Part shown: piece after piece, positions 8,940-29,347 of the stretch
Numbering within the stretch: position 1 is the first letter of the stretch
Layout: the number at the start of each line of letters is the position of its first letter
IMG/VR virus record: IMGVR_UViG_3300037558_000788
Location: 1-59,828 of that record
Strand: one strand, 5' to 3'
DNA: 59,828 bases
Origin: a virus
Taxonomy: Duplodnaviria; Caudoviricetes
Position numbers and translations under genes: made by a program
Notes under the pieces: generated by a model
What the model saw: only the letters and a program-made list of their open reading frames with translations
Told to the model about the DNA's origin: nothing
Databases searched by the model: none

Positions 8940-8947
8940 ACTTGGCG

Positions 8948-8975
8948 AGTATATTGAATTGACAGTCAATGTCAA
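8948..8975 (-). promoter_or_regulatory. Sigma70-like promoter for the portal operon
   Basis: TTGACA-16 nt-TATACT, ending 8 nt before the ATG at 8939. Confidence 0.65.
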
Positions 8976-9427: not shown

Positions 9428-9503
9428 AAAAAACTTTTCTCTCCGGCTCTTAGTACTATATAATATTTTATATAGTACTAAAGGTCTAGAAGAAAAGTTT
9501 TTT
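9428..9503. repeat. 76-bp self-palindromic element, copy A; inverted partner at 27473-27548
   Basis: AAAAAACTTTTCT...TTAGTACTATATAA-TATT-TTATATAGTACTAA...AGAAAAGTTTTTT. Confidence 0.95.
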
Positions 9504-9762
9504 ATTGGGGTTTAAGTGCCGCTTTTCTAGCACTGCGTTTAGCCATGATTTTACCTTTATTCTTGCGGTAATACTCTTTGTTGTAGTTACTTACACGTTT
9601 TTTGAACTCCCCATACTCCTCTGGTTCAAGGACTTTGCTTATCTCTAATTTCCGAGAGTAGCTGTATTTCGTCCTCCGATAATACTCATTTTGATAACCG
9701 AGTCGCTTTTCCCGATTCTCTAAATAGTATTCCTTTTTCTTTTTTGGGTCGTATTGGGCCAT
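9502..9762 (-). CDS. Small basic Lys/Tyr-rich helical protein, putative DNA-binding
   Basis: 86 aa with repeated KEYY..N motifs; preceded by its own promoter. Confidence 0.7.
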   Translation of the reverse strand: MAQYDPKKKKEYYLENREKRLGYQNEYYRRTKYSYSRKLEISKVLEPEEYGEFKKRVSNYNKEYYRKNKGKIMAKRSARKAALKPQ

Positions 9763-9767
9763 AGCCG

Positions 9768-9796
9768 ACCTTACCCGATAGCCAGACCCCCGTCAA
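9768..9796 (-). promoter_or_regulatory. Sigma70-like promoter in leaderless geometry
   Basis: TTGACG-17 nt-TAAGGT, ending 5 nt before the ATG at 9762. Confidence 0.6.
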
Positions 9797-9869
9797 TTTT
9801 TTTCTAAACATACATATATGTACACACTCACGCGCAAAAAAAAGCCGGACCCCACCCGTGGCGTGTCTA

Positions 9870-10030
9870 CGAACCCTGAATCCCGAACCCCGAGCCATGA
9901 ATCAAACGCCACAAATAAATTATTCAGGGTTCAGGATACGGTATGCAGGATTCGGAAGACTGACCTTCCGAGAAGATGTTGGTGGTCATCAACTACCATC
10001 CAATTTATCCCGTATCCTGTATCCTGTATC
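9870..10030. repeat. Degenerate heptamer repeats (GAACCCT/GTATCCT type) in both orientations
   Basis: gaaccctgaatcccgaaccccgagcc; ttcagggttcaggatacgg; tatcccgtatcctgtatcctgtatc. Confidence 0.6.
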
Positions 10031-10149
10031 TTTACCGTAAGGACAGATTAGTTAAGGGAGGTTAACTAACGGATGTGGCTCTGTATCCCTTATAGAATCA
10101 AGGATTATTGAAAAAGTATTAGTTTTATGTTGTTAAAGTTTATCGTTTG

Positions 10150-10584
10150 TTTACGTTGTGGAAGTCACCGCAAGGAGGCACCCATTCAATCCCAAGCAAC
10201 GTTCGCAGTGATTAATGGTTGAAGGATAGGTCGGTCAACAACCTTCTAGATCTCAAGAAGATCTTACCTGAACGCCCAGTGATGGGGCAGCATTTTGAAT
10301 TGCCAGCAAGTCACTGCCAGCGGGAACGGCGATTGAATCCCCGTTTCGACAATGTGATTACCGTAGTATGCAGCTTACCAGCAGCCTTCTCGATCAGCTC
10401 AGATAGGAGCGATGAGATCTAGCGATGTAAGAGTAAGAGGGATACTACCACACCAACCCAGCACGCGATCAGCTCAGAAGGAGCGATCAGCTCTGGCTCT
10501 GGTAGTGAATCACAAGTGAAAAGCTAGTGCCACCTTTTGGTGGCCATAGCTCACAGCTACCAGTCATCTGGTGGTTGTGAGCTA
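10150..10584 (+). ncRNA. Candidate structured non-coding RNA or long leader
   Basis: No convincing ORF; many nested inverted repeats; follows an AT-rich promoter-like stretch (TGTTAAAGT near 10131-10139). Confidence 0.4.
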
Positions 10585-10787
10585 TGGAATACGAAGAATA
10601 CAACTACGCTATTGCGAATGAAGATGGACTCTATTATCGAGGCACAGCCTACGGTGACAAAAGAGATTGGACTACTGAAACAAGAGGATGGTGTGATGGG
10701 GCTTATACTTACAGCCTTAATGGTGCTTGGAGAAAGATATGCGCCTTTCCAAAGATGTTTGATAAGTGTGAAGTCATCCGCCTATAG
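10584..10787 (+). CDS. Hypothetical early protein
   Basis: 67 aa; first of a run of small plus-strand ORFs. Confidence 0.6.
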   Translation: MEYEEYNYAIANEDGLYYRGTAYGDKRDWTTETRGWCDGAYTYSLNGAWRKICAFPKMFDKCEVIRL

Positions 10788-10796
10788 TTAAACGCT

Positions 10797-10991
10797 ATGA
10801 CTAAGAATATGACTAAACAAGACTGGATGTATAAAGTCCTAGAGTTGAAACTCGAAATCGCGAAGGCGGATGATGCCATCAACGATCTGAGATCGTACCT
10901 TCTCAGCGATAAATTCCACAAAGACCCAACGGTTCAAGTCAGCGATGTCCTTCGCTACCTTGAAAACGTTAGGCTTTATCCTGAACCCTGA
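10797..10991 (+). CDS. Hypothetical early protein
   Basis: 64 aa, helical, closely follows the previous ORF. Confidence 0.65.
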   Translation: MTKNMTKQDWMYKVLELKLEIAKADDAINDLRSYLLSDKFHKDPTVQVSDVLRYLENVRLYPEP

Positions 10992-11146
10992 ACCAACCCA
11001 TGAAATCAAAAAACAAAAGGCGTAATTTTTACGCAAAATCAATGGCGAGCTGCAAAACTAGCGACACTAGTCTCGTTCGCGAACACCGAACGGGCGTGTC
11101 GAAGCACGCGAAAGGTAGGTTTTCACCCACGAAACGTAAGCGAAAA

Positions 11147-11188
11147 CCCTGAACCCTGAACCCTGAACCCTGAACCCTGAACCCTGAA
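11147..11188. repeat. Perfect tandem heptamer (CCCTGAA)x6
   Basis: Read directly; intergenic, upstream of the DUF932-like gene. Confidence 0.95.
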
Positions 11189-11278
11189 CCGTGCGCCTTG
11201 TATCACGCAAGGCGCATCATTCAGAGGTCACAATGAACCACTGAAACCAAACAATAAAACAATAGAAAGAAAATAGCT

Positions 11279-12322
11279 ATGCACAACATTACTAAGATTG
11301 ATACTGTCCTCTGCCCTGAAGGTTCTAAATACAGAACATGGCATGGGTTAGAGCAGACTACCCCACTACCCATCACCGAACGGGTAGCTGAGGATTACGA
11401 GTTGCTGCCACACGTATCGAAGCAGCACATGTACGTTGACGGTCTAGAAAAGGAGGTTGAGAACTTCAAAGCTCTGACCACCATCGACAAGACTGGTCAG
11501 AAGGTCACGCTCGACGTGGTCACTGACAGATACAGCATTATTCAGAATCGCCAAGTCTTCAAGACAATGTCAGAATCCTTCAAGGGAACTGGTCTTGAAT
11601 ACACGCTCTCGTGCATCGGCACGTTGGGTGGCCTTAAGAAGTTCTTCATCTCAGTTGCAGTAGGTGACGACGATGGAGGTTTCATGGTAAACGATGACAA
11701 GTTTTACGGGAACGTGAACTTCATCACCAGCCATGATGGTGGCTCGTTTCACGCTCACGATTCACTTACAAGGATCGTGTGCCAGAACACGCTTAGGTCT
11801 TCTTTATCCGGTCAGAAGAATGTCGATTTCAAGATCAGACATAAAGGCGACACACAAGCGAAATGTGAGGATCTCTCACGCTACCTTAAGAACGTGTTCA
11901 CCGCTCGTGAAGTCTTCATCGAGAAGATGGGTAGGCTCGCCGACCATAAGGTGAATGGTGAAGACATCCGACAAGTCGTTGGTGGCTACTTCGTCATGGA
12001 AGCCTTCAAGCGTGGCGAGAAGTTAGATGAGGGATTCAAAACCCGCTCTCTTAACATGATCGACGGGATCACAGACCTTGCTATAAATGGCCAAGGCAAT
12101 CGTGGTCAGTCACTATATGATACGTTGAACGGTGCTACTGAATTCTGGACATCGGGAGATGGAGTCGGACAGTCTGCTACGGCAGGTAAGAAAGCTTACA
12201 GTTCCGAATTCGGAACAGCAGCAGCTAACAAAGAACGGTTTGCGGAATACCTGACCAGCGGATTGTTCCAGTCAACTGATCTGGAAGCAAACACACAGCG
12301 TATCCTCGCTCTATCTCATTAA
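11279..12322 (+). CDS. DUF932/DUF945-family phage protein
   Basis: WHGL, V...YSIIQN, SHDG...RIVCQNTL, IRH and YDTLNGATE motifs. Confidence 0.8.
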   Translation: MHNITKIDTVLCPEGSKYRTWHGLEQTTPLPITERVAEDYELLPHVSKQHMYVDGLEKEVENFKALTTIDKTGQKVTLDVVTDRYSIIQNRQVFKTMSESFKGTGLEYTLSCIGTLGGLKKFFISVAVGDDDGGFMVNDDKFYGNVNFITSHDGGSFHAHDSLTRIVCQNTLRSSLSGQKNVDFKIRHKGDTQAKCEDLSRYLKNVFTAREVFIEKMGRLADHKVNGEDIRQVVGGYFVMEAFKRGEKLDEGFKTRSLNMIDGITDLAINGQGNRGQSLYDTLNGATEFWTSGDGVGQSATAGKKAYSSEFGTAAANKERFAEYLTSGLFQSTDLEANTQRILALSH

Positions 12323-12396
12323 TTCCCACCCTGCGTCTCGCCTAACGGCGGGGCGTAGTCGGGAGTGAATGTCCACTCCACTAAACATTAAAAGAT

Positions 12397-12525
12397 ATGG
12401 TTAAAACTAATACACTAATATGGACCGCGATCTGGTTTGTTCCAGCCGTCGCGACTCTTCACTACGTCGGGATCGATACCATCGTACGTGCTGTCATTCA
12501 AACCCTGTTCAACATTCTAGGATGA
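12397..12525 (+). CDS. Small hydrophobic protein (42 aa; not in the ORF track)
   Basis: MVKTNTLIWTAIWFVPAVATLHYVG...; ATGA overlap with the next gene. Confidence 0.55.
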   Translation: MVKTNTLIWTAIWFVPAVATLHYVGIDTIVRAVIQTLFNILG

Positions 12526-12818
12526 GTGGTAAGCCGATGGCGTTAAGTAAGGAGCCGATGGAGATCACCATTGAGGTGACTCCACACCCACCGTTTGAAG
12601 GGACGACCACCTACCGTGCGCTTGCGTGGGTAGGCGATCAGTACTCAACCACCCTCTACTCTCAGAGCGAAGGGTTCTGTCAGGAGTGGTGCGCTGACGA
12701 AGCAGCGAAGAAATTGTCAAAAATGATGCGTTGGCAGTACCCGAAAGCTGTTTTTAAGACTAAGCTCACCAAGAAGGTCGAGACTAAGTTCTCGTCAATG
12801 CTCAAATCAGCGATATGA
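12522..12818 (+). CDS. Hypothetical early protein
   Basis: Start MSGKPMAL chosen from the ATGA coupling; also coupled to the next ORF. Confidence 0.6.
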   Translation: MSGKPMALSKEPMEITIEVTPHPPFEGTTTYRALAWVGDQYSTTLYSQSEGFCQEWCADEAAKKLSKMMRWQYPKAVFKTKLTKKVETKFSSMLKSAI

Positions 12819-13114
12819 AATACGAAAGACAACCTAATAAGCCCGACTGGTATCGTTCCGACGATACCAAACTTTATCGCGCCGCAACGTCAGGCTCGTC
12901 ACCGTTCAATGAATGGTATGAGTTTGACGATAGAGCGGAAGCCGTCGAGCATTTCGCGGACCAGACCGAAACCGACCAATTTTGTTGGATCGGCGGAGAG
13001 ATCTTCCACCTCGAAGACCTCGAATACGATGAGGTGATCGAAGGTTTCGTCAGGATTAAAGGTGTGAAACCCGCCGACCTCGATGAGGTAGTTCAATCCG
13101 TTAGTAGATTCTAA
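12815..13114 (+). CDS. Hypothetical acidic early protein
   Basis: 99 aa; ATGA overlap. Confidence 0.7.
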   Translation: MKYERQPNKPDWYRSDDTKLYRAATSGSSPFNEWYEFDDRAEAVEHFADQTETDQFCWIGGEIFHLEDLEYDEVIEGFVRIKGVKPADLDEVVQSVSRF

Positions 13115-13129
13115 AAACCAACCTGAACT

Positions 13130-13345
13130 ATGAAAAAAACAATAAGCCGAACCGCCCAGATTCATGGGCGGGGATCGCAACCCTACCGTTGGGTTTCCCG
13201 ACTCACAGTGGAAGAAAAAGACGCCGTGAGGAGAGGGGAACTAGTCCTCATTCGTGATCACCACCCCCTGTCGGGATGTGATTACAAAAAGGTCGTTTAT
13301 CATAAACGATCTAAAAGATTTGGCCACCGCAACTACAACCCATGA
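13130..13345 (+). CDS. Hypothetical basic early protein
   Basis: 71 aa within the operon. Confidence 0.65.
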   Translation: MKKTISRTAQIHGRGSQPYRWVSRLTVEEKDAVRRGELVLIRDHHPLSGCDYKKVVYHKRSKRFGHRNYNP

Positions 13346-13497
13346 TTCTAGATATGGACTATTTACAAATCATCGGCCTGATCCTCACGGCCCCGTTAGC
13401 TCTTATCGTAATTACTGCGAACATGGTTAAGACTGAATCGCGCCGCCTCCGCAAGATGCGGGAGCGTGCCGACCAAAAGAAAAGGAGGCGGGCATGA
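13342..13497 (+). CDS. Small membrane protein (51 aa; not in the ORF track)
   Basis: One hydrophobic helix (IIGLILTAPLALIVITA) and a basic tail; ATGA overlaps at both ends. Confidence 0.6.
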   Translation: MILDMDYLQIIGLILTAPLALIVITANMVKTESRRLRKMRERADQKKRRRA

Positions 13498-13928
13498 TTA
13501 TCTTGCACCAAGATCCTTGCGTATCAGCTCGCGAGCTTTGCGATAAAGACCTACGAAAAACCCTTAAACAAGCTGGAGATCTCGCGTTTAAAGCCCTTGA
13601 GAATCGCTCAGATGAAAGCGACCCTACCCTCCTGTGGGTGTGTCGCTATCCTGCTAACTTAAAATGGACCATAGAATACGCTCAATTTTGCGCGGCAGAA
13701 TCTTACTATCGATTCGGTCGCAAGCGAGCGAGAGTATCCTATCCTGTCCTTCAACTACCCGACATATCTGCGGGATCGGTTGAGGGCTTACCTAGTAAGC
13801 CTGAATACTGGAGGGACCACTACAAAAAAGTGGTGGCTCCCAAATCGGTCTGGCCAAACTTGCTATGGTCAAAGCGATACCCACCGGATTGGTTGTCGCG
13901 AATCATATTTCCGAACGCGATTCATTGA
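13494..13928 (+). CDS. Divergent pyrimidine-dimer DNA glycosylase-like (DenV family) protein
   Basis: N-terminal DP..SA..LCDK...K, central P...WV....N..W...Y..RFG, and C-terminal W.KR.PPDW resemble this family. Confidence 0.55.
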   Translation: MIILHQDPCVSARELCDKDLRKTLKQAGDLAFKALENRSDESDPTLLWVCRYPANLKWTIEYAQFCAAESYYRFGRKRARVSYPVLQLPDISAGSVEGLPSKPEYWRDHYKKVVAPKSVWPNLLWSKRYPPDWLSRIIFPNAIH

Positions 13929-13943
13929 AGACATAGCACCGAA

Positions 13944-13977
13944 GGAGGTGGGGATCTCTCCCCACCTCCTTTTTTTG
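13944..13977 (+). terminator. Rho-independent terminator ending the early region
   Basis: GGAGGTGGGGA-loop-TCCCCACCTCC followed by eight T. Confidence 0.9.
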
Positions 13978-14005
13978 TGCCTAGACTTAAACCAATCGAA
14001 CCTAA

Positions 14006-14040
14006 TAAGTGGGAAATTCTTATCTGTTTTTTCCCACTTA
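14006..14040. terminator. Second hairpin at the convergent boundary, possible minus-strand terminator
   Basis: TAAGTGGGAAA...TTTCCCACTTA inverted repeat just downstream of the giant gene. Confidence 0.45.
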
Positions 14041-14071
14041 AATACTATCATCTCATTATCCAAGCGAAAAC

Positions 14072-20000: not shown

Positions 20001-23000
20001 CGAGTTCGGAGTGCGCCATCAAGGGCGACCATAGTATTTAATGCTTCAGTCGAGTCTATAGTATCTCCCGTAATCTCAGCAAACAATGACTGGAACTCTT
20101 CAACGGCGGGTTTGTTTATTTGACTGACTCCTCTAGGACGACCAGCAAATCGTGAAACGATAAGGGCGTTTCTAAGATCAATACCTCTGGAAGATCCAGA
20201 CTCTAATCCCGATACAAAACTATTAACTGACTTACGGACCCGACCGTTACTGGAAACCATCCATGACGACATGACCCCAAAAAGATCTTTGGGGCTGAGG
20301 CTTTTGACGACTTCCGCCACCTCGTTTGAACCATCAAACACATTGTTCAAAACGAACTCATCAACAGATCGACGTAGGGTCTGGTCTTTATTGATAGCAT
20401 CGATAGCATTATCAATAGAACTAGACATTACGTTAGCGATCACTTCAGGCTCTGCAAGTGTGCCGTCTGGCTCTCTCCCAAAATTACTGAAGTAATCATC
20501 AGACCTTCTGGAATCGGTATCGAGGTCTCCGTCTTGTGGTAATGTCAATGCAGCTACGTCTCTATACTTTCGGGATACGTAGTCTTTTTGAGCCTTAAAG
20601 TTATCCGCAGCTTTAGATAAAACCGATGTAAATGTTGGAGGCGCAGTCCCACTCAGTGCGGGGTTGTTCTCAACATTCTGCTCTATGAACACTTCAAGAA
20701 TCTTGCTGCTGCTGTATTCTCCTGCCTTGTCAATAGTGACTAAGGGTAGGAGTCGGCTAGCGGCTGCATCTACTTTGAGATCCATCCGGTTTAGAAGTTT
20801 ACCAACTTTATCGGTAGGGTCTTGAAGAATGTCCTGCTTCAACTCAAACATTCTTGCGTTGAATATAAATTGCCGGCGAGCAGCGTCCATAGCTTGTTTC
20901 TGAGCATCCGAGTCGGAAGGGTCGGTGAGAGGCTCCATACGAGAATGAGCTTCGACGTTTCTCTCCTCCCCAGTCTTATCCAATTCCTTACTAAATGAGG
21001 TTATGAATCTTTTGATTTCTGTTACGCTACTGAAGTCTTCCTCCGTAGTTGCGCCGTTCTCAATGTCAAACTTCTTAACTCCAGTAGGGAGATCAACTGC
21101 TTTAAATGGGATACTACCCAGTATAGTAGTCTTTGCGTTATTGTAGTAATACTTAGGTGGGGCTTCAACAGGAGTAACTTTAGATTCAAGAGCTGCTCCG
21201 TCCGCCGTAAGCCCTACGACATCCTTCACATAATTATTCTCATCGAGAAGAATCGAAGGGTTAACATTAGGAAATCCTTTTGGAACAAAGACAGGGACTT
21301 TGGCCCGAAGCATCTCAGCCACAACAACAGGATCGTTACCGAACTGACCGATGCCATACTCATCAACAAACCCAGTAACTTTACCAGTCTCGGTCTTTCC
21401 TGTCTGTGGGTTGAAGTGTGTTCGCACGGACACACTCTCAAAGCTTGACCCTGACACAGGTTTCTTTACTGCAACCGTAGGGTAAATTGTGTATACTGAA
21501 GAAGCGACGTAATCACTAAGAGCAAGTGGGTCAACATCTTCAGGAATCGGGATACCGTGCGTGTCAGAAGTAGTTAAATTAACTGGGTAACCTAGACTCG
21601 CTGATTCAACAACCTTCTTCTGGACAAAGGGGGCTAGATCTTCTTTTACAGGAACGTCGTCAAACTCAAGTGTGTTACTAGACTTTCGCCTAGCGTAACT
21701 CTTGGAGCTTGTGAAATCACCACTTCGGTAATCCGCGTTGTGGGTCGTGACTTTCTGGCTTAGTGTCTCTAAAACATTCTCAGAGTTTGGTCCTACTTTT
21801 ACAGTAGCGAGAGTGCGTTGGAGGTCAGTGAAATCAATATCGACTCCCGCTTGAGCTTCTTTTCCTTGTTCTAATGACAGAGGGGAACCTTTGTCTGCAA
21901 CGACTCCAATGTGTTCTGTGTTAAGGACAGAAGCTTCTACGAATTGTGCTGAAAACTTTTTAGCTTTCTTATTCTTTACGTTACCAAATTGGAAGTTTAC
22001 TTCAGCTCTACTGACATCTGCGACTCTCTCTAAGAGAGTTGCACCTGCGGTAGTTTGCGATCCTGATACAGAATCTTGGGCTAAGTCTTCTGCTGATTCC
22101 AGCTTAATCTCGACTGGAGCTTTAGGTTGGGTCTTGTCTGTAAGTTCAGCTATCCTGTTATCTAGATCTGCCAGTAATGCTTGCTTGGTAGCAAGCTGTT
22201 CTTCATCTCTAACTTCAGCATTCTCTAATTCTTCTAGTGCTTGCGCCTCCGCAATCCTTTCTTGCTCCACTTCACTCAGCGCAGCTTGATCATTAAGTAT
22301 TGTTTGATCCTCTTCTGTTGTCTCTGTCGGTAAAGGAGGAGGTTGGATCTTGGTTCTTTTCCGCTCTCCAATCTGTCTTAGGACTTCATTGGCAGTTGTC
22401 GGACTCCCATTCTTTGTTAAGTTGTCTGCAACATCTTGGTAGAATTGACCTCTAAGACGTACGCTCTGGTCGGCTACGTCCATTGGGGTAACTTTGAGTT
22501 TTCTTGCAGCCGCTTGAACTGTTGGGACTCCCGCACCTAAGATACCACCAACCATAGCGGCGTGCATAGTCTGCTGCCACCTCTCAAGAATAGGTGTGTC
22601 TTTGTTAAGAGCTACATCTTCAACGAACGAGGATACAAGCTGGTCAAGACCTTCTTCTAGACCTTCGTCAACAGCGTTCTTTGCGATTTTACCGCTAGTG
22701 CGTAAGAACTGTGCGCTGTGCTTTTTAAGAGAATCTGCTAAGACAGTCTTCATTGCTCCTGACATAGCTTTATTAGTAATAGCTCCAGTGTTAGCAACAG
22801 CTTCTAAAACTTCTTTAGCTTCTTTGAAGCTCATACCTTTTAATAAGGCGTCTTCAACACCGCCCCTACCGATTGCACTAAACGCAGAGGTGATTAAACC
22901 AGTTACAGCACCCGTAGTCATAGCAAAACCTAAGGCTCTGTCGTGGATGTCTTCTTCGGGAAGGTCGGGGTTGCTTTCTTTAAGTTGGGTGTAAAGCGTC

Positions 23001-24940
23001 CCGTAACTCATGGCAGTAGAACGAGATGCTGCGGGGACAAATGTTCCTACAGCTAAACCCATTTTTCTCGCGACTACACTATTGTAAGCTTCCAAGGCTT
23101 CAATAGTCTTTTCTCTTGCCGCTGTTCCTGCTCCTGATTCTGCTACTTCTTTTATAAGATCCAGTTTAACAGCCCTGTCAGCTACCTTTTTTAAGGCTAC
23201 GTCACCAGTAGCTCTAAGCATATTACTGGTCATACCCTTAACCATACCCCTAGCGGTTAACTTAGCTCCTGACTTAGCAGTTAAGTATGCCACACCACCA
23301 GCTCCTGCGGTAGCTGTAGAAAGTAAAAAGGTAGCACCAATATCAACAATCATTGGGGCCACGGCTTCCATGACATCTTGTCCGACGCCGTACTCAGCAC
23401 CAAACATAGCGGCAACTTGCCGACGATTAGCTTGCTGCTTACTCATCTCAACAAGACCTTCCTTACCCCAATCAGAGCCAAATACTGTAGGGGCTAAATA
23501 AACTAGGCTTGATACGGCGTCCCATACAGAAGCGGCGATGCCTTTAGCTCTAGCAGCCACTTCGCTAAATACTTCTTCATTAGCGGTGAACTCTTTAAGA
23601 ATAGTGGCGTCTCCTTTACCTTCCTGACGGCCAGTCAAGAGAGCTTCGGACCACTCATCAGCGTAACTAGAATCTTCAAGAACTTTATTGTAATTACCGA
23701 ATTGATCAGCAAGAATCTCGTCCTGAGCCTCTACGAATCTTTTCTTAGTCTCTTCAGATAATTCAGGGTGAGCTGCTAAGGTCTTTGCAAAAAGCTCATC
23801 ATTAACAAAAACTGCGGGGTTGATTTGTGGCCCCAGCTTTGTGTTCCTCAAATTCTGCCCTGCTTCTGTTGCGTCTTGCCTGAGTGCGAATGAACCCCCA
23901 GCAAAACCGGAGCTTACCACTAAAGCTTCATAAGCGTCACGAACATCTGAAGGCTTATAATTAGCACCACTGTTGTTCAACTGCTCTGTGATATACTCAA
24001 CAGCCGAATCAAAACTACTATGGCTAGCCAACCACACTCTTTTTCGCCGAGCATCTACTTCATCGTCAGCAACTCCTATACCAGCTAACAGATCTGACAC
24101 ACCTTTACCTATTGACTTACTTACAGACTCTGCCGCTGAGTCATCTTCACGAGCTAGTTGACGTGCGTGTCCAGCGATATGCTCAGAAACAAAGGCATCA
24201 TCCTGAGATAACTCTTCAATACTCTTTGAGATCTCACTCAGTTTCTTGAACTGGTAAACAGACACACCAGTATCTGGAATAGGGCGAAGTTGAGATTCGA
24301 TTTCTGAAACATTCTCATACGAAACATCCCCAAGCTGTGAAGCCTTAACTGCTTTCGCAAGAGACATCTCACTGGCGGTATCACTAATCAAAAGCTTTTG
24401 ATTACCGTCTTCATCCATCACATAAGCAAAAGGAAGTTGATTTGTGTTAATGAGATCTTCTTTGGTCTCATTAAAACGCCTTTCGACAATCTCTTCAGCT
24501 TGAAACATCAAGGAAGCAACTTTCCCCTTATACTCTTCCGTTACGTCTTCTTGCTCTGAGATAACTTCCTCACCAGCCATGTAATCCAATATCACCTGAC
24601 GATCAGGATCATCACCTGAAAGACTAGAGAAGACGACGTTCATCTTACTCTGCGTATCAGCTCCTTTGGGAGCAAGAGTCTTCTCTATAGTATCCTCATC
24701 CATCCCCGAAATCGTGGACAGACCTTGACGCAGCCCCATCTGAATTTCGGCTTCAGACTTAGCGTCGTAGGAATCCCCTAAAGATCCACGCATAAAGTCC
24801 GCGTAGCTTAGAAAGCTTTGAGGATCGTCATCAGCTACATCGTTTTGAGTAGACCATTCAGAGAATGATTTAATTTGTTTCGGGGCTTCAGTCTCTTCAA
24901 AGAGACTCTTTTCAAATTCGGTAATAGGCAAATCAGGCAT
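14072..24940 (-). CDS. Giant internal virion/ejection protein (polyvalent-protein-like), 3622 aa
   Basis: Last and largest of three co-oriented helical ORFs; Gly/Ala-rich hydrophobic segments; two zincin-like motifs, LLEEYAHA and INEELAHT. Confidence 0.7.
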   Translation of the reverse strand: MPDLPITEFEKSLFEETEAPKQIKSFSEWSTQNDVADDDPQSFLSYADFMRGSLGDSYDAKSEAEIQMGLRQGLSTISGMDEDTIEKTLAPKGADTQSKMNVVFSSLSGDDPDRQVILDYMAGEEVISEQEDVTEEYKGKVASLMFQAEEIVERRFNETKEDLINTNQLPFAYVMDEDGNQKLLISDTASEMSLAKAVKASQLGDVSYENVSEIESQLRPIPDTGVSVYQFKKLSEISKSIEELSQDDAFVSEHIAGHARQLAREDDSAAESVSKSIGKGVSDLLAGIGVADDEVDARRKRVWLASHSSFDSAVEYITEQLNNSGANYKPSDVRDAYEALVVSSGFAGGSFALRQDATEAGQNLRNTKLGPQINPAVFVNDELFAKTLAAHPELSEETKKRFVEAQDEILADQFGNYNKVLEDSSYADEWSEALLTGRQEGKGDATILKEFTANEEVFSEVAARAKGIAASVWDAVSSLVYLAPTVFGSDWGKEGLVEMSKQQANRRQVAAMFGAEYGVGQDVMEAVAPMIVDIGATFLLSTATAGAGGVAYLTAKSGAKLTARGMVKGMTSNMLRATGDVALKKVADRAVKLDLIKEVAESGAGTAAREKTIEALEAYNSVVARKMGLAVGTFVPAASRSTAMSYGTLYTQLKESNPDLPEEDIHDRALGFAMTTGAVTGLITSAFSAIGRGGVEDALLKGMSFKEAKEVLEAVANTGAITNKAMSGAMKTVLADSLKKHSAQFLRTSGKIAKNAVDEGLEEGLDQLVSSFVEDVALNKDTPILERWQQTMHAAMVGGILGAGVPTVQAAARKLKVTPMDVADQSVRLRGQFYQDVADNLTKNGSPTTANEVLRQIGERKRTKIQPPPLPTETTEEDQTILNDQAALSEVEQERIAEAQALEELENAEVRDEEQLATKQALLADLDNRIAELTDKTQPKAPVEIKLESAEDLAQDSVSGSQTTAGATLLERVADVSRAEVNFQFGNVKNKKAKKFSAQFVEASVLNTEHIGVVADKGSPLSLEQGKEAQAGVDIDFTDLQRTLATVKVGPNSENVLETLSQKVTTHNADYRSGDFTSSKSYARRKSSNTLEFDDVPVKEDLAPFVQKKVVESASLGYPVNLTTSDTHGIPIPEDVDPLALSDYVASSVYTIYPTVAVKKPVSGSSFESVSVRTHFNPQTGKTETGKVTGFVDEYGIGQFGNDPVVVAEMLRAKVPVFVPKGFPNVNPSILLDENNYVKDVVGLTADGAALESKVTPVEAPPKYYYNNAKTTILGSIPFKAVDLPTGVKKFDIENGATTEEDFSSVTEIKRFITSFSKELDKTGEERNVEAHSRMEPLTDPSDSDAQKQAMDAARRQFIFNARMFELKQDILQDPTDKVGKLLNRMDLKVDAAASRLLPLVTIDKAGEYSSSKILEVFIEQNVENNPALSGTAPPTFTSVLSKAADNFKAQKDYVSRKYRDVAALTLPQDGDLDTDSRRSDDYFSNFGREPDGTLAEPEVIANVMSSSIDNAIDAINKDQTLRRSVDEFVLNNVFDGSNEVAEVVKSLSPKDLFGVMSSWMVSSNGRVRKSVNSFVSGLESGSSRGIDLRNALIVSRFAGRPRGVSQINKPAVEEFQSLFAEITGDTIDSTEALNTMVALDGALRTRLSVSLLSEAQRRGIAQANDVVIADLGLESGNSDSVVSALGKIAESDKNPNHKLFAKLLLEDQAFIKNVKFVVGQGDTNIAGKYVKSIHGDHIVFINKATGNGRGLVNTLLEEYAHAVVSDTIAETGRPLNTTQKAAKKRLVTLFNKVNEAYDRQVSATGKRNPVIQVGLVNLDEFVAHFFLSPDFQSYVKTLTGPRTKVFDRTLNSMVSMFRGVNTNELNQYVKSFKDVLDLGKNTRRSTTTNAKALGSSVVNDALFSAPVEEDVQVEEEAPIEVQPEAFPEDFFDRLSPDQQSDAQSVKDFIRSLIPPSIIIKTKIEGMGGSLAAVSKDESTIFINPIVLAAKVKNNSYLAARGIIGVSINEELAHTASFNGLTQAEVDAYVESLSDTDYLDILAEYTSNTKDESFAKEFHDGLKSEDPEVVLQTKRILAEEKLRMYLQKATRGYTTEEDTRFWKSNPSLLAILKRYFAAAIRRFAANRTQLGGAGGVALNKMINEMRAIQSGFVRQPNIKSFDVNNPDANFAFYASPEDKNIDDEILRAAPEGAIEHVYLREQEKFNQLREAGVIKVSQDIRQFAGLSVLLHQPDTAFAGEVTLDGDTIVTGKGGVYYPVQFSDQGYFWASTRSKAKEMEAALNQISAKNNGKILMALTSADVTKMFSSTTMAVGSINFFRKLTDNPRFYGLNKATLNKILVEAANEAEHTTNSGAVKKLSRRLKIKDGLDQNIRNLRELLGPDDSVFPVRKDFVSRLALGVSDTLSSPSKDKIKLMSEEDQKKEETKQIQAFRIASILAGSNDYVSKTLRDRKLSRPAILQGLGDMFTEPFIKTFQQLDRKTGNIYAVLEIDGEVEAVPAPEHESYPFTIVSKEKGVTPKINVLSKSYKWDEVSHDIDTDQPVPQSKLDSYFPPSSGVSNTSLKFVEPNEAAESNSLPLQFAAPSDPNPLQSDLNLNPVVDLLEMPMLEIGAKGPENRLLNWLNKLVAGEISEPYRRLIENRSFYRKAAEDNMTKFKRKMDRLIVETYGSYDNAPMDLIAKAQGYRSDSLVSEERLGLIDKAYDEKLDEIASRRSSGVITTDEAKAEREAAKEGKNNIIGKAYDEAVKIAEEERNKALRDLAAASPDLASFIIEIRQNHIIPIQKKLVEMGLNDDVSIKVSRTGEVYLTRAYRMFTDSNYLEMVKEDASYADVREAAMEFFEGQFISDTADKIKKDADENKKPMTYQEAKQLARRELDKLNLQNPHYSYGQQTLDAFLSQYDSKAKTKGQSPSGFKMMVDNFKKRSDLPKPIRDLLGEYGAETGTDLILRTYSTVANIAAQKSFLEQLKFYAGEKEGLLISAETKFATDESRKKYAGWESVRMGQTDGANDPMTDMYVHPEFKEALQQTLNNTYIQEYAGTSERLVNGAFTLASKLSGKAMAAKTLGSVGFYFRNALGNFIFGTSQGFFRYDQMFTSMGGASFKALFGKDGEIDPVVTEMIGLGVMGDELRAGVMRDLLNGKQNPDGIQKELEGLMEKSKLNKPKKVLAAIEKKAQDLSAALDAAYKAVYYQHELGYIERAAAQNPEGKFGQMSPMQRKREAARKVLMTAQSYSQAPPLITDITKSPLGLMFAPFLRFKAEMFRIPFNTYKLGLEEFRSGDPVMRQRGILRMSSMTFVLAGLSSAVPMIAAAMTGIGDDEHEDEAMRAGIPEYYRGHTFYYFTLGGKLTSFDATYLNPFAGTVDPILRSMEKIRAGEYSEAGAAFALGYVKDQFLDTQILAGTAINAANNTNQSTGKPIWNKGVDDPIDVAYKLFEFIAGEAYAPRIGKDFVKGLETQSLSGMMGELSKGVAPARFHEVDLQRQYERYLLDHNKRFANVKSELGQLRRNVPMTEETVRQIIDDNIEARRKMNYELMRITRGYNSLGIDSAKIGKTMKDLNVGKKRMQLLTYGYMDKPPTLNIIETLLKPQNKDYGIERAKQVVNYMQTQNRYIPVRPVTEPE

Positions 24941-24981
24941 AGCTGAAGAGGTTTGGGATGTAGTTGATGATAGTAGTTAGA

Positions 24982-26013
24982 TTATCGAGCAGAGTCAGGA
25001 ATAAATTTACTGGAAAGACTAGGTTTTTGTTCTGTTGCCCTAGATGCTAAAACAGGGTTGGCCATAGAAGAAGCTCTCCTTAAAACAGCACGGTATAGAT
25101 CTTTATCGGGGAAATTAGCTCGACTTAAAGAGCCGCTTGACTCAATCCGCATCCGATCTTGTGGTGGGAGTAGTTGTAAATAGCTCGTTTCTAACTGGGT
25201 GCGCTCTCTATCGCCGAATGTAAGTTCTTGAATACTAATCTTATCAGCAGAATTCATAGCTTCAATCCCTGCTGCTGACAAAGTTCCTCCGGCAGTCAAG
25301 TCACTAGCAACCTCAGCAGGAGACATGTCGATGACATTTTTAAGGATAGACTCAGCCTCACTTTGTTGAGCCTTTAGGTATTCTTTCTGCTGCTCAAATT
25401 GGAAATCAGAAAGCTCTTTTTGTGTTTTAGCAAAACCTTTTTGTTTAGCTGCTTTCGCTATTTCCAAAGATATTTCATCTGAAGAGGATATATACCCATC
25501 AAGATTAGCTAGCTGCGCTATTTTCTCAGGAGAAACTCCTGAGACTGCTGCTTGATAAATTTTACCTGCGTCACGTTCACGCATCTTACTCTGGTTATCA
25601 ATGGAGCGAGTAGCCGAATTAAATAAGTTGGTAACCAAAGGGGAGAATTGTGATACAGACGCATACTTTAGCTGTAACTGTGCTAAATCTCGCTGCTGTG
25701 AGAAATTATCTTTAGATGGGTCATTAGAAATATTCGATATGCTCTCGATTACGTCTGGAATCTTTTCTAGTGCCTCATTTTCACGACGCGCTGTTTTACG
25801 CGCTCTACGTAGCTGAAACTTCTGTTGTTTAAAAGCTAACTCTTGTTGCTGCAAAGCCATTGACTGCTGCTGCATCTTCATTGTCTGCATTTGCATAGGC
25901 ATCAAAACCTCTTGGCGATACTTCATAGCAGCATCAAAACTCCTTTCTCCAGCAAGCATAGGAAAATACTGCTGGCGGAGCGGTGCGATGTCTTGGTTGT
26001 AATCGATAGCCAT
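24982..26013 (-). CDS. Putative internal virion protein
   Basis: 343 aa, Gln-rich and helical; precedes the giant gene. Confidence 0.55.
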   Translation of the reverse strand: MAIDYNQDIAPLRQQYFPMLAGERSFDAAMKYRQEVLMPMQMQTMKMQQQSMALQQQELAFKQQKFQLRRARKTARRENEALEKIPDVIESISNISNDPSKDNFSQQRDLAQLQLKYASVSQFSPLVTNLFNSATRSIDNQSKMRERDAGKIYQAAVSGVSPEKIAQLANLDGYISSSDEISLEIAKAAKQKGFAKTQKELSDFQFEQQKEYLKAQQSEAESILKNVIDMSPAEVASDLTAGGTLSAAGIEAMNSADKISIQELTFGDRERTQLETSYLQLLPPQDRMRIESSGSLSRANFPDKDLYRAVLRRASSMANPVLASRATEQKPSLSSKFIPDSAR

Positions 26014-26031
26014 TTTAATCTTAAAGGTTTA

Positions 26032-27114
26032 TTATAGTTTCACTCTTTCAGGAAAGTTGGGGTTCGACCGTCGGTCTCCCTTCCTGTTAACACCAAACCG
26101 TTTTTTGTTTGGTGTTTTATCTAAAGGAGATTCATATTTCTCCACCATTTTTGGCTGTTGAATCGAGTCGTTTGATTTTGGCTTCCCCACCCCCATCGCG
26201 TCAAACATGTTTTTTGAACCAGCCATTAGTTTATCTTGTTTCTGAGCTTCTCGACTTGTTAAAATTTTCTGGAACATTCTCTGCCCGCGACCAGCAGGAG
26301 TATCAATAGCAGGTTCTCCCATACGGACCATCTCGCCAGCTAAACGCATACGAGCTGCTCCTTCTCTATCCCCATCACGAGCGAGGCTACGAGCGGCTCT
26401 ACGAAACTTACCACTAGCAGGCCCAATAGAACGAGAAGGTTTTAGAAGGGACGACCCACTACCTAATTCGTAGTTAGGGTCTTGCATAGCAGCTAAAGCA
26501 TCTAGTCCAGACCCAAACTCTTTTTTGAACATGACATTCTGAGTAGCTTCTTCTGGAGACGAAGCTAGATCTGTCGCAGGTTGGCCTGTCGCAGGTTGGC
26601 CTGTCGCAGGTTGGCCTGTCGCAGGTTGGCCTGTCGCAGGTTGGTCAAACAGCCCTGTCCCTTTTTTAGGTTTTTTAAAAGAGAACGTAGAACCACGCTC
26701 GCGGATACCTTCTTTCTCCATGAAAGAACTGAACTGATCTTCAGAAACTCCGGCCTTCGTTGCTCTTTGTCGTGCTTCTTTAAGGAGATCAGCGGTCAAA
26801 GCACCTCGTTTCGATAAGTCTCCGAGACCGGAAGCAATACCTCTGCGAGCAGCTAACTGGTCGTTAGCTTTTGGGGCGGGGCCAACCTCAGGTGTATCGG
26901 GCTTTGCGGACCCACCTGCTAAATCGTAGGTTTCAGGATCGACTGTAGAACCATAGCCAGCGGTAGTCCCAGCCATGTCTCTCATATCAGGTTCTATATC
27001 AGAGTCTGTTGCAGGTGTTTTAATACCTCTTTTAGCAAGACGTTCAGCCCTCTCAGAAGTTGGGTCTTTTCGTTGTTTTTCTTTAAGAAATTGAAAGTAA
27101 TCTTTTTTAGCCAT
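26032..27114 (-). CDS. Putative internal virion protein with (QPATG)x5
   Basis: Low-complexity Gly/Ala/Lys-rich ORF; start taken as MAKKDY. Confidence 0.55.
   Translation of the reverse strand: MAKKDYFQFLKEKQRKDPTSERAERLAKRGIKTPATDSDIEPDMRDMAGTTAGYGSTVDPETYDLAGGSAKPDTPEVGPAPKANDQLAARRGIASGLGDLSKRGALTADLLKEARQRATKAGVSEDQFSSFMEKEGIRERGSTFSFKKPKKGTGLFDQPATGQPATGQPATGQPATGQPATDLASSPEEATQNVMFKKEFGSGLDALAAMQDPNYELGSGSSLLKPSRSIGPASGKFRRAARSLARDGDREGAARMRLAGEMVRMGEPAIDTPAGRGQRMFQKILTSREAQKQDKLMAGSKNMFDAMGVGKPKSNDSIQQPKMVEKYESPLDKTPNKKRFGVNRKGDRRSNPNFPERVKL
26571..26644. repeat. 15-bp tandem repeat x5 encoding QPATG
   Basis: CTGTCGCAGGTTGGC units. Confidence 0.95.
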
Positions 27115-27116
27115 GA

Positions 27117-27410
27117 TCACCAAAGTTTTTTACACGCCCAATAGCGTGCTGTTGTTTTATCTTTTGCTGTTTTGCAATTGTGTCTGGCTCTGAAGTTTGC
27201 CCGACGCTTAGGGTTCTTGTGTTTTGTGAAATCACTGTAATCTCGGTGGCCGTAGCCGACCTTTTTAATTTTATCGCCTTCTTTACCTAATACGACGAAT
27301 TTCTTCTTCGATCCTTTAGGGGCGCGTTTAGGCTTATTAAAGCCAGCGAACGTCTCGCCGTGGTATTGGATACGGCCAGATGGGAGCCGCTTGAATCTTT
27401 TATTCGCCAC
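27117..27410 (-). CDS. DUF5754-like small basic protein
   Basis: KKVGYG..DYSDFTKHKNPKRRANFRARH...ARYWA motif; GTG start 7 nt after the -10 box. Confidence 0.7.
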   Translation of the reverse strand: MANKRFKRLPSGRIQYHGETFAGFNKPKRAPKGSKKKFVVLGKEGDKIKKVGYGHRDYSDFTKHKNPKRRANFRARHNCKTAKDKTTARYWACKKLW

Positions 27411-27417
27411 GCGGCAT

Positions 27418-27446
27418 AATCTACCAGAATACAACGAAACTGTCAA
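27418..27446 (-). promoter_or_regulatory. Sigma70-like promoter for the internal-protein operon, leaderless geometry
   Basis: TTGACA-17 nt-TAGATT with an extended -10 TG. Confidence 0.7.
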
Positions 27447-27472
27447 CGGAAGGGAATTTCGGATATGCGACT

Positions 27473-27548
27473 AAAAAACTTTTATCCTAGACCTTTAGTA
27501 CTATATAAAATATTATATAGTACTAAGAGCCGGAGAGAAAAGTTTTTT
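27473..27548. repeat. 76-bp self-palindromic element, copy B; inverted relative to 9428-9503
   Basis: Reverse complement matches copy A at 74/76 positions. Confidence 0.95.
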
Positions 27549-29337: not shown

Positions 29338-29340
29338 AAT
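29312..29340 (+). promoter_or_regulatory. Candidate promoter for the replication operon, embedded in the terL 5' end
   Basis: TTGCGC-17 nt-CATAAT, ending 7 nt before the ATG at 29348. Confidence 0.5.
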
Positions 29341-29347
29341 TAAATCG

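What the first reader, a model, noticed from the sequence alone, without database searches (positions are those of the whole stretch)
9428..27548. Paired 76-bp palindromic elements in inverted orientation around an 18-kb segment: possible genome inversion switch or dual origin
Seen: 9428-9503 and the reverse complement of 27473-27548 are 74/76 identical. Each has a perfect core TTAGTACTATAT-AATATTTT-ATATAGTACTAA (12-bp arms around an asymmetric 8-bp spacer) plus outer AAAAAACTTTT/AAAAGTTTTTT arms. Both overlap the stop codon of a minus-strand gene. They bound the block (early genes plus internal virion genes) that separates terL from the portal cluster. Known: arm-spacer-arm architecture is that of tyrosine-recombinase sites (loxP, FRT, dif), and inverted sites drive flip-flop isomerisation as in the 2-micron plasmid. 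No recombinase gene was recognised here. Inference: invertible genome isomers made by a host or unrecognised recombinase or by homologous recombination, or twin cruciform origins or packaging signals. Near identity suggests selection or gene conversion.
Basis: partly seen in the sequence, partly recalled or inferred. Interest (0 to 1): 0.85.

Follow-up and report, generated by a model that had tools for sequence, protein, structure and literature searches.

The report
Conserved palindromes marking phage operon boundaries
The two near-identical 77-base palindromes are real, but they look like a conserved boundary element between gene blocks in an uncultured marine phage family, probably a transcription stop signal that a neighbouring DNA-binding protein also recognises, and not a switch that flips the 18-kb segment.

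Summary
9428-9504 and 27472-27548 are a 77-nt inverted pair, 97% alike, and each is itself a quasi-palindrome.

The window is a whole 59.8-kb phage contig. All 73 related IMG/VR loci with enough sequence carry the same kind of element just after terL. It has A-run/CTTTTC outer arms, about 9 unpaired bases, a lineage-specific upper stem, then the mirror image.

- **Copies.** Each of 10 genomes has 2-3 copies. They differ at 0-4 of 44 core bases within a genome and at 2-27 between genomes.
- **No inversion seen.** The 18-23-kb block has one orientation in 10 of 10 genomes.
- **Orientation not conserved.** The two copies are inverted in 6 genomes, direct in 7 and ambiguous in 1.
- **No recombinase found**.

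The ancestral copy sits just upstream of a gene labelled HNH. Its product is really a nuclease-less tandem NUMOD4-like DNA-binding protein. The terL copy is followed by a sigma-70-like promoter in 57 of 58 unique sets.

Best reading: a terminator-like operon-boundary hairpin that also serves as this protein's binding site. An inversion switch is not supported. No read-level or RNA test was possible.

The parts
9428..9504 (.). Palindromic element, copy 1 ('pal1'). Outer arms 9428-9440 / 9491-9503, unpaired segments 9441-9449 / 9482-9490, inner arms 9450-9463 / 9468-9481, centre 9464-9467.
   Evidence: (I1, I3)
27472..27548 (.). Palindromic element, copy 2 ('pal2'), the reverse complement of copy 1 with 2 differences. 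Inner arms 27495-27508 / 27513-27526.
   Evidence: (I1, I2)
8972..9412 (-). 146-aa protein that starts 15 nt after pal1. It is a tandem pair of NUMOD4-like beta-sheet DNA-binding modules with no HNH nuclease part. The N-terminal half is variable and the C-terminal half conserved.
   Evidence: PHROG 'HNH' hits cover only the N-terminal parts of the profiles. No Pfam hit. AF2 model pLDDT 91.5. Residues 73-145 match I-HmuI residues 1-66 at Z 9.1, rmsd 2.2 A, 64 aligned, next Z 3.4. Atlas cluster with NUMOD4 in 10% of members. Domain identities.
9502..9762 (-). 86-aa ORF whose TAA stop lies in the A/T run of pal1. It is conserved at 51-87% identity in 9 of 9 relatives.
27547..29400 (-). Large terminase subunit gene. 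Its TAA stop lies in the A-run of pal2.
   Evidence: (phrog_2, E 1.8e-15)
27418..27446 (-). Sigma-70-like promoter, TTGACA-17-TAGATT with a TG extension, 26 nt after pal2. It faces the DUF5754 / 363-aa / 343-aa / 3622-aa operon.
   Evidence: A TTGAC follows the element in 57 of 58 unique relatives.
27117..27446 (-). First gene after pal2, a DUF5754 protein (phrog_7595). It is found directly after the element on the same strand in 52 of 59 loci.
9460..9488 (-). Weak promoter-like match inside pal1, TAGACC-17-TATTAT, 9 of 12, pointing at the NUMOD4-like gene. The same hexamer pair in pal2 points antisense into terL.
   Evidence: This is inference only.
8948..8975 (-). Strong sigma-70-like promoter, TTGACA-16-TATACT, 11 of 12, at the stop of the NUMOD4-like gene, in front of the 752-aa gene.
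13941..13972 (+). Canonical G+C-rich intrinsic terminator at the convergent junction inside the block. It serves as a contrast to the palindromes.

Best explanation
The two palindromes are copies of a family-wide operon-boundary element.

**How it works.** Each copy starts at, or within 45 nt of, the stop codon of the upstream gene. It can fold into a two-helix hairpin: an A/U-rich lower stem that ends in a U-run on either strand, an internal loop of about 9 x 9 nt, and a 14-17-bp upper stem. This is the layout of a bidirectional intrinsic terminator, and a new promoter or gene follows it.

**Probable protein partner.** The inner arms also look like the recognition boxes of the nuclease-less tandem NUMOD4-like DNA-binding protein encoded directly downstream of the ancestral copy (8972-9412). 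That protein would bind the element, autoregulate its own gene, and co-regulate or insulate the neighbouring virion operons.

**Why the copies match.** All copies in one genome must fit one protein, and/or they convert each other. That would explain why they are near-identical within a genome and very different between genomes.

**Why they are inverted here.** The orientation of the terL copy is free and flips in situ. The inverted arrangement in this window is therefore incidental, not a device for inverting the 18-kb block.

**Shown:** anatomy, conservation, positions, concerted evolution, variable orientation, and the fold of the neighbouring protein.
**Inferred:** termination, protein binding and regulation.
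For: **The element itself**
- It lies after terL in 73 of 73 loci with enough downstream sequence. In 71 of these, at least 24 of 38 arm positions are complementary.
- The consensus fold has a lower stem, an internal loop and an upper stem. 21 of 24 pairs show compensatory double changes across 39 sequences.
- The hairpin is stable on both strands and ends in A6-8 / T6-8 runs.
- The stop codon of the upstream gene lies in the A-run at both window copies.
- A TTGAC box follows the terL copy in 57 of 58 unique sets, and 48 of these also have a -10-like hexamer at 16-18 nt (for the window). Distant clades also place TTGAC promoters between the element and the NUMOD4-like gene.

**Link to the protein**
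- The NUMOD4-like gene lies between the element and the 752-aa gene in 53 of 62 loci anchored on that gene. 40 of the 53 have an element scoring at least 24 of 36.
- Clades with terL at 67-77% identity (G015, G017, G019) keep only this copy.
- The protein's N-terminal half diverges much faster than its C-terminal half (for example G005: 56% against 79%). Each N-half cluster has its own inner-arm box.
- G005 has the closest backbone (giant protein 98%, terL 96%), yet its protein is only 67-68% identical and 24 of 44 core bases differ at both copies.
- Isolated extra half-sites matching the genome's own arm lie in the 70-nt flanks of 27 of 97 unique sets. Controls using another locus's arms gave 0-12, mean about 4.

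**Orientation**
- RNA stability shows no consistent strand bias. At pal1 the sense strand is more stable in 14, the antisense in 18, and 3 are alike, of 35 unique elements. At pal2 the figures are 34, 15 and 4 of 53.
Against: **Against termination**
- No RNA data exist, so termination is unproven.
- The stem base next to the U-run is G+C-poor (CUUUUCU/AGAAAAG). The terminator scan did not flag either copy, although it did flag the canonical terminator at 13941-13972.
- In this clade the NUMOD4-like gene starts 12-35 nt after the element with no room for a promoter. A strong terminator there would silence a conserved gene unless read-through or the weak internal promoter-like site supplies transcripts.

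**Against protein binding**
- DNA binding by the protein is inferred from fold alone.
- Covariation between protein and arms is confounded by physical linkage, since the N-half coding DNA is within 100 nt of pal1, and by shared ancestry.
- The outer arms stay AAAAACTTT in clades where the C-terminal half is only 23-26% identical. They change to AAAAAGTC where it is 46% identical. A simple 'C-domain reads the outer arm' model therefore fails.
- Within one N-half cluster the distal upper stem still varies yet stays palindromic. This favours a folded structure, or a hairpin-templated mutation process, over protein read-out of every base.
- L001 and L006 (terL 98% identical) have a degenerate upper stem.
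Confidence: 0.45

Rival explanations
1. A plain bidirectional intrinsic terminator. The copies are kept alike only by gene conversion between short repeats, and the neighbouring NUMOD4-like gene is unrelated to it.
For: - Hairpin with A-run and U-run at stop codons, followed by promoters.
- Compensatory changes in 21 of 24 pairs.
- In a distant clade (L277 / G019) the element is a near-perfect 33-bp G+C-containing stem ending in T6.
- The core flips in situ between near-identical flanks, as conversion from the other copy would produce.
Against: - Ordinary terminators have no reason to keep a fixed internal loop of about 9 nt, lineage-specific boxes, or isolated extra half-sites.
- They have no reason to keep a conserved position directly in front of one particular DNA-binding gene over a wide family.
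- The stem base is G+C-poor.
Confidence: 0.2
2. A DNA site for the NUMOD4-like protein that acts in packaging (a pac-like signal) or replication (twin origins with an A+T-rich meltable centre flanked by inverted boxes), not in transcription.
For: - One copy abuts terL. The other abuts the gene in front of the putative portal, where a small terminase gene would usually lie.
- The palindromic centre is A+T-rich with flanking A/T runs.
- A lineage-specific protein-site pair is typical of initiator/origin or terminase/pac pairs.
- Contigs assemble as circles: the end overlaps of 32 and 123 bp are assembly-type. This is compatible with headful packaging.
Against: - Copy number varies from 1 to 3, there are tandem pairs, and orientation varies. 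This is odd for a pac site or an origin.
- A separate HTH_23 / Terminase_5-like protein next to terL is a better small-terminase candidate.
- An iteron-like heptamer array at about 9870-11200 is a better origin candidate.
- The protein is encoded in the structural block, not the replication block.
Confidence: 0.12
3. A recombination hotspot or selfish palindromic cassette. The element, with or without the adjacent gene, spreads and is swapped between co-infecting phages, and it marks the borders of the hypervariable block.
For: - The core is replaced between flanks that stay near-identical. L195 has terL 100% identical over 499 aa but another upper stem. The window core is flipped relative to L195, L003 and L002.
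- Extra copies occur at new sites in G004, G006 and G016.
- The block between the copies is the most variable part of the genome, with the giant protein at 28-63% identity in 8 of 9 relatives.
Against: - A pattern scan of IMG/VR found full elements only in this phage family: 26 of the first 77 loci examined, all on family contigs. The exact core was found nowhere else.
- The positions are conserved, not scattered.
- There are no target duplications, and no transposase or nuclease gene was found.
Confidence: 0.08
4. An RNase III-type processing or mRNA-stabilising hairpin, like the inter-genic R sites of phage T7, which I recall as two helices around an internal loop.
For: A two-helix hairpin with a conserved internal loop at co-directional gene junctions.
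Against: - The element works in either orientation relative to transcription, and there is no strand bias.
- This reading does not explain the extra half-sites or the link to the DNA-binding gene.
Confidence: 0.07
5. The inverted pair drives flip-flop inversion of the 18-kb block, by a recombinase or by homologous recombination.
For: - A 77-nt inverted pair, 97% alike, is present in this genome.
- The phage encodes a PD-(D/E)XK exonuclease and a RuvC-like resolvase, so homologous exchange is possible.
Against: - One block orientation in 10 of 10 genomes and in 52 of 59 loci; the other 7 gave no hit.
- The copies are direct in 7 genomes and inverted in 6.
- Clades with a single copy exist.
- Many relatives have no asymmetric core.
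- No tyrosine or serine recombinase was found.
Confidence: 0.03

Closest known systems
Bidirectional Rho-independent terminators of bacteria and phages (recalled general knowledge)
   Same: A hairpin flanked by an A-run and a T-run, placed right after a stop codon and before the next promoter. It works in either orientation.
   Different: The hairpin is much longer (about 64 nt) and has two helices with a conserved 9 x 9 internal loop. The stem base is A/U-rich. The inner stem is lineage-specific and kept identical among the 2-3 copies of a genome. A generic scan does not recognise it.
Phage phi29 regulator p4 and its inverted-repeat sites (CTTTTT-N15-AAAATG, recalled from memory, not checked in a call)
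   Same: A small phage DNA-binding protein that recognises inverted repeats containing T/A runs, placed between transcription units that use host RNA polymerase.
   Different: The protein fold is different (tandem NUMOD4-like beta-sheet modules). The site is much longer and composite. Binding and regulation are not shown here.
Lambda N with nutL/nutR (recalled)
   Same: A few copies per genome of a hairpin element that are identical within a phage and differ between related phages. One copy lies just upstream of the gene for the protein thought to recognise it, and the other lies after another gene's stop.
   Different: nut sites act as RNA in a fixed orientation. Here orientation is free, there is no strand bias, and the partner has a DNA-binding fold.
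[quoted passage not shown]
   Same: Residues 73-145 of the neighbouring protein superpose on I-HmuI residues 1-66 at Z 9.1, rmsd 2.2 A. An atlas cluster has NUMOD4 in 10% of its members.
   Different: There are two such modules in tandem and no HNH catalytic part. The model is all-beta plus one C-terminal helix, and there is no Pfam HNH hit. The gene is conserved at one position rather than patchy like a homing gene.
Inverted recombination sites: loxP, FRT / 2-micron, hix
   Same: Two inverted, near-identical sites with an arm-centre-arm layout in this one genome.
   Different: Orientation is not conserved, no recombinase was found, the centre is often symmetric, and the block is never seen inverted.
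Herpes simplex oriS / SPP1 oriL-oriR type paired origins (recalled)
   Same: An A+T-rich palindromic centre flanked by inverted protein boxes, with more than one copy per genome.
   Different: There is no evidence of initiation here. The partner gene lies in the structural block, and copy number and orientation vary.

Membership tests
Site-specific inversion switch (inverted recombinase sites) | The two sites are kept in inverted orientation. | tested here: not met
   Inverted in 6 genomes (G000, G001, G003, G005, G007, G008). Direct in 7 (G002, G004, G006, G016, G018 and the contigs of L002/L243 and L011/L234). G009 is ambiguous.
Site-specific inversion switch (inverted recombinase sites) | Both orientations of the intervening segment occur. 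| tested here: not met
   One orientation in 10 of 10 assembled genomes and in 52 of 59 loci; the other 7 gave no hit. Minor isomers in reads could not be tested.
Site-specific inversion switch (inverted recombinase sites) | A tyrosine or serine recombinase is encoded or available. | tested here: inconclusive
   No recombinase family was found in Pfam scans of 28 of the 29 ORFs of 150 aa or more. Many ORFs have no family at all, and host enzymes cannot be excluded.
Site-specific inversion switch (inverted recombinase sites) | An asymmetric 6-8-bp crossover core between the binding arms. | tested here: not met
   The window has a 4-nt centre. In relatives the centre is 0-7 nt, and it is often a perfect palindrome with no centre.
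Bidirectional intrinsic terminator | A stable hairpin followed directly by a U-run on both strands. | tested here: met
   -29 to -37 kcal/mol, z -6.8 to -8.9. A6-8 / T6-8 runs in the window and relatives.
Bidirectional intrinsic terminator | A G+C-rich stem base next to the U-run. | tested here: not met
   The lower stem is CUUUUCU/AGAAAAG with 2 G-C pairs. The consensus scan did not flag either copy.
Bidirectional intrinsic terminator | Placed at the end of a transcription unit, before the next promoter. | tested here: met
   It overlaps stop codons. A TTGAC promoter follows in 57 of 58 unique sets.
Bidirectional intrinsic terminator | RNA 3' ends form at the U-run. | not testable with these tools
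Operator of a phage-encoded DNA-binding regulator | A cognate DNA-binding protein is encoded beside the site. | tested here: met
   The tandem NUMOD4-like gene lies directly after the element in 53 of 62 loci. Its fold matches the I-HmuI DNA-binding domain at Z 9.1.
Operator of a phage-encoded DNA-binding regulator | Site and protein change together. | tested here: inconclusive
   Each N-half cluster has its own inner box, and the G005 case is discordant with the backbone. The result is confounded by linkage and ancestry.
Operator of a phage-encoded DNA-binding regulator | The protein binds the site. | not testable with these tools
   This needs a gel-shift or footprinting experiment.
HNH homing endonuclease (the PHROG label of 8972-9412) | An HNH beta-beta-alpha-metal catalytic motif. 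| tested here: not met
   PHROG matches cover only the N-terminal parts of the profiles. There is no Pfam HNH hit at E up to 0.1. The model matches only residues 1-66 of I-HmuI. That these residues are the DNA-binding domain is recalled from the I-HmuI structure paper.
Mobile palindromic element (MITE / REP-like) | Many copies at varied sites, also outside one phage family. | tested here: not met
   There are 1-3 copies at conserved sites. The exact core is found nowhere else in IMG/VR. The looser pattern finds full elements only on contigs of this family.
Known RNA families (Rfam 15) | A match at the gathering score. | tested here: not met
   No match in the window. There are only sub-threshold generic long-hairpin (miRNA precursor) matches of 27 bits or less.

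The most novel reading that the evidence does not exclude
The composite palindrome and the nuclease-less tandem NUMOD4 protein form a previously undescribed, fast co-evolving protein-DNA specificity pair in an abundant uncultured marine phage family.

The protein would read lineage-specific boxes at the base of a hairpin- or cruciform-forming element placed at 1-3 operon borders. It would act as a programmable roadblock or insulator, or alternatively as the lineage's packaging or replication identity signal.

The element core itself would flip and convert in situ by a hairpin-templated route. That is a 55-bp flip-flop, not an 18-kb one.
Probability: 0.2. Interest if true: 0.7.

Novelty: new variant of a known kind. 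Interest (0 to 1): 0.45.

Why it matters
- **It corrects an attractive but wrong reading.** A striking inverted pair around 18 kb is not a genome switch.
- **It defines a cis element for a widespread phage family.** The family is uncultured and marine. The stretch occurs in 20 DNA runs from 14 studies, of which one may be the source sample. 182 IMG/VR stretches carry related terL. None of the family's regulation is known.
- **It re-labels a gene.** A gene that databases would call an HNH endonuclease is a nuclease-free tandem DNA-binding protein.
- **It may give a compact model system.** If the protein-site pairing is real, it offers a natural set of orthogonal protein/operator pairs and a model for how phage regulatory specificity diverges.
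- **It documents concerted evolution and in-situ flipping of a quasi-palindrome.** This bears on how palindromes survive in phage genomes that encode junction resolvases.

Tried and rejected
**Read-level test of inversion.** The look-up of sequencing runs listed only DNA runs kept as Logan contigs, and no RNA holder was listed.

**Cultured relatives.** blastn of both junction regions against 50,697 phage records gave no match. tblastn of terL gave only 23% identity to Arthrobacter phages.

**N4-like idea** (giant virion RNA polymerase using hairpin promoters). The 3622-aa protein has no Pfam, PHROG or PDB sequence match. The idea has no support, but it is not excluded.

**Hairpin-telomere / protelomerase idea.** Rejected, because the two flanks of each element are different unique sequences and the unpaired segments are not mirror images.

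**Portal identity of 6717-8975.**
- No PHROG, Pfam or PDB sequence hit.
- The AF2 model is poor, pLDDT 56.7.
- The VIA search gave only helical-bundle matches and two weak portal/tail rows: Z 7.3-7.5 at rmsd 10-33 A.
- It remains unverified.

**Foldseek** of the NUMOD4-like model against PDB found no match at E 0.001 or better. The VIA wide search found I-HmuI.

**Box-like repeats in the leader of the 443-aa gene** (TTAGAACTAT x2). They are conserved in 10 of 10 genomes regardless of each genome's palindrome type, so they are a separate motif.

**Helical phasing between the element and the downstream -35 box.** Distances cluster at about 56, 65, 75, 84 and 102 nt. The period is about 9 nt and the lineages are not independent, so the result is inconclusive.

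**Covariance model R1** was too insensitive for distant clades: 2 of 5 genomes at E 1 or better. I used each genome's own element as the probe instead.

**GC skew** follows gene strand and says nothing about an origin.

**Literature.** Three searches and passages of PMC6316719 turned up nothing on this element or on nuclease-less tandem NUMOD4 proteins. I saw only search listings and abstracts, apart from those passages. Supplements are closed.

Full report
**1. The observation.**
The window is an entire 59,828-bp virus contig. The repeat finder reports arms 9428-9504 and 27472-27548, 77 nt, 97% complementary, 17,967 nt apart. No other inverted pair in the window is longer than 35 nt. Read directly, the two copies differ at two bases.

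Each copy is a quasi-palindrome of five kinds of part:
- outer arms AAAAAACTTTTCT / AGAAAAGTTTTTT
- two 9-nt segments that are not mirror images, CTCCGGCTC and AGGTCTAGA
- 14-bp inner arms TTAGTACTATATAA / TTATATAGTACTAA
- a 4-nt centre, TATT

The rest of the description is right, including the overlap with the stop codons of minus-strand ORFs 9502-9762 and 27547-29400. As RNA either strand folds at -29 to -37 kcal/mol, z -6.8 to -8.9.

**2. Context.**
- A long minus-strand block runs from 9412 leftwards across the contig ends to 39690. It holds tail, amidase and other virion-type genes.
- A plus-strand replication block lies at 29291-39563: HTH protein, RuvC-like resolvase, helicase, PD-(D/E)XK exonuclease, family A polymerase and a primase-like protein.
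- On the minus strand lies terL (29400-27547), then pal2, then a sigma-70-like promoter (27446-27418). After that come a DUF5754 gene, 363-aa and 343-aa genes and a 3622-aa gene with no known family.
- Small plus-strand genes at 10219-13928 end at a canonical terminator, 13941-13972.
- Two small minus-strand ORFs (9898-9502) are followed by pal1, then a 146-aa gene (9412-8972), then a strong promoter (8975-8948) and a 752-aa gene.
- Pfam found no recombinase in 28 of the 29 ORFs of 150 aa or more. The 29th is RuvC-like by PHROG.

**3. Relatives.**
No cultured relative was found. IMG/VR holds 182 stretches encoding terL relatives, and the best 80 were fetched (81-98% identity). Seven of these have too little sequence after terL. 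All other 73 carry an element of the same build 0-45 nt after the terL stop, and 71 have at least 24 of 38 arm positions complementary.

A 39-sequence alignment gives a consensus of lower stem, internal loop of about 9 nt on each side, and upper stem. 21 of 24 pairs show compensatory double changes. The outer arms and the base of the upper stem (TTRGT...ACYAA) are conserved. The rest of the upper stem is lineage-specific.

**4. Copies per genome.**
Ten genomes were compared: the window and G001-G009.
- Every genome has a copy after terL and one or two copies (tandem, 119 bp apart) between the 86-aa ORF homologue and the 146-aa gene.
- G004 and G006 have a third copy in front of the DUF932 gene.
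- Core mismatches (44 nt) are 0-4 within genomes (21 pairs) and 2-27 between genomes (36 pairs).
- The window's closest backbone relative, G005, differs at 24 of 44.
- L195 encodes a terL 100% identical over 499 aa, yet it has a different upper stem.

This is concerted evolution.

**5. The inversion hypothesis.**
- Gene order and relative strands around and inside the block are the same in 10 of 10 genomes.
- In 52 of 59 terL loci with at least 600 nt after the element, the DUF5754 gene follows on the same strand. The other 7 gave no hit.
- The relative orientation of the two copies is judged from the non-mirror segments. It is inverted in 6 genomes, direct in 7 and ambiguous in 1 (and for two contigs).
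- Three genomes of a more distant clade have only one copy.
- Between near-identical flanks, the core of the terL copy is flipped in the window relative to L195, L003 and L002.

What flips in evolution is therefore the roughly 55-bp core, not the 18-kb block.

**6. The neighbouring gene.**
PHROG labels 8972-9412 'HNH endonuclease', but only through the N-terminal parts of the profiles. Pfam finds nothing. The sequence shows two repeats of a motif that I recognise from memory as NUMOD4-like.

An AF2 model built on 32 homologues (pLDDT 91.5) is all-beta with one C-terminal helix. Residues 73-145 superpose on residues 1-66 of I-HmuI at Z 9.1, rmsd 2.2 A, with the next hit at Z 3.4. I recall these residues as that enzyme's DNA-binding domain. 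Foldseek found nothing.

The gene lies between the element and the 752-aa gene in 53 of 62 loci anchored on that gene. These include clades where the protein is only 22-40% identical, and 40 of the 53 have an element scoring at least 24 of 36.

The N-terminal half diverges much faster than the C-terminal half. Each N-half cluster has its own inner-arm box. Isolated half-sites matching a genome's own arm occur in the flanks of 27 of 97 unique sets, against 0-12 (mean about 4) with the arms of other loci. In some lineages they lie just before the gene's start codon.

**7. Transcription context.**
A TTGAC box follows the terL copy in 57 of 58 unique sets, and 48 of these have a -10-like hexamer. 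Distant clades also have TTGAC promoters after the other copy. In the window's clade the 146-aa gene starts 12-35 nt after the element. Only a weak promoter-like match inside the palindrome points at it.

RNA stability shows no consistent strand preference. At pal1 the sense strand is more stable in 14, the antisense in 18, and 3 are alike, of 35. At pal2 the figures are 34, 15 and 4 of 53, and the lineages are not independent. Rfam has no family for the element.

**8. Reading.**
- **Terminator features.** The A-run / hairpin / U-run build, the position at stop codons and the following promoters fit a bidirectional terminator at operon borders.
- **Protein-site features.** The fixed internal loop, the lineage-specific boxes, the extra half-sites, the within-genome identity and the constant partnership with a tandem DNA-binding protein fit a protein recognition site.

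I take the element to be both, with confidence 0.45. Termination and binding are inferences. The anatomy, conservation, concerted evolution and lack of inversion are shown. The rivals are a plain terminator with gene conversion, a pac or origin site, a recombination hotspot, an RNase III site and the inversion switch. They are scored in their own sections.

**9. Novelty.**
The kind of element is known: a terminator or operator at an operon border. The variant is new. It is a composite two-helix palindrome kept identical within genomes, flipping in situ, and tied to a nuclease-less tandem NUMOD4 protein in an uncultured marine phage family. Three literature searches found no description of it.

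Noticed in passing
window 9870-10030 and 10957-11197: Arrays of a heptamer-like unit (CCTGAAC / GGTTCAGG, five tandem ACCCTGA units at 11146-11190) sit in and next to the divergent region between the small minus-strand ORFs and the plus-strand early genes. They look like iterons, so this may be an origin or regulatory region. Similar CCCGAA motifs precede the promoter after pal2 in relatives.
   Followed up: no
window 5105-5195 (minus strand leader of gene 3707-5038): Two direct repeats, GGTTGCTCTAGCC-N5-6-TAGTTCTAA, lie 55 nt apart downstream of a TTGACA-17-TAAGAT promoter. They are conserved in 10 of 10 genomes and do not covary with the palindrome type. This is probably a conserved leader motif of a highly expressed late gene.
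   Followed up: partly
window 14072-24940 (minus): A 3622-aa ORF has no Pfam, PHROG or PDB sequence match. It is only 28-63% identical in 8 of 9 relatives but 98% identical in G005.
   Followed up: partly
window 1-2212 and 57297-59828: A minus-strand gene runs off both contig ends (737 + 843 aa) and holds internal 85-130-nt repeats (D4-D7). The ends do not overlap. The contig is probably a circle broken inside a repetitive tail-fibre-like gene.
   Followed up: partly
window 29291-29989 (plus): A 232-aa protein divergent from terL has a homeodomain-like HTH (HTH_23, E 3e-7) and a weak Terminase_5 match. It is a candidate small terminase subunit on the opposite strand. Its ORF overlaps the annotated terL start.
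   Followed up: no
window 41253-41428, 52866-53015, 56835-56978, 26560-26644: In-frame hexanucleotide and 15-nt tandem repeats lie inside structural genes: GA(A/G)CTA, CTGGCT and CTGTCGCAGGTTGGC units.
   Followed up: no
window 51523-52819 (minus): Two adjacent genes match glycosyltransferase family 25 inside the virion gene block.
   Followed up: no
L001 11852-11927 and L006 1816-1893: Two close relatives (terL 98% identical) keep the outer arms, but their upper stem is no longer palindromic, at 23 and 21 of 38. This may be a hybrid or decaying element.
   Followed up: no
L287-L289 (loci anchored on the 752-aa gene homologue, 40-41% identity): In this distant group a 577-aa ORF, possibly terL, lies directly upstream of the homologue. 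There is no NUMOD4-like gene and no palindrome. The block and the elements may be an insertion into an ancestral terL-portal pair.
   Followed up: no
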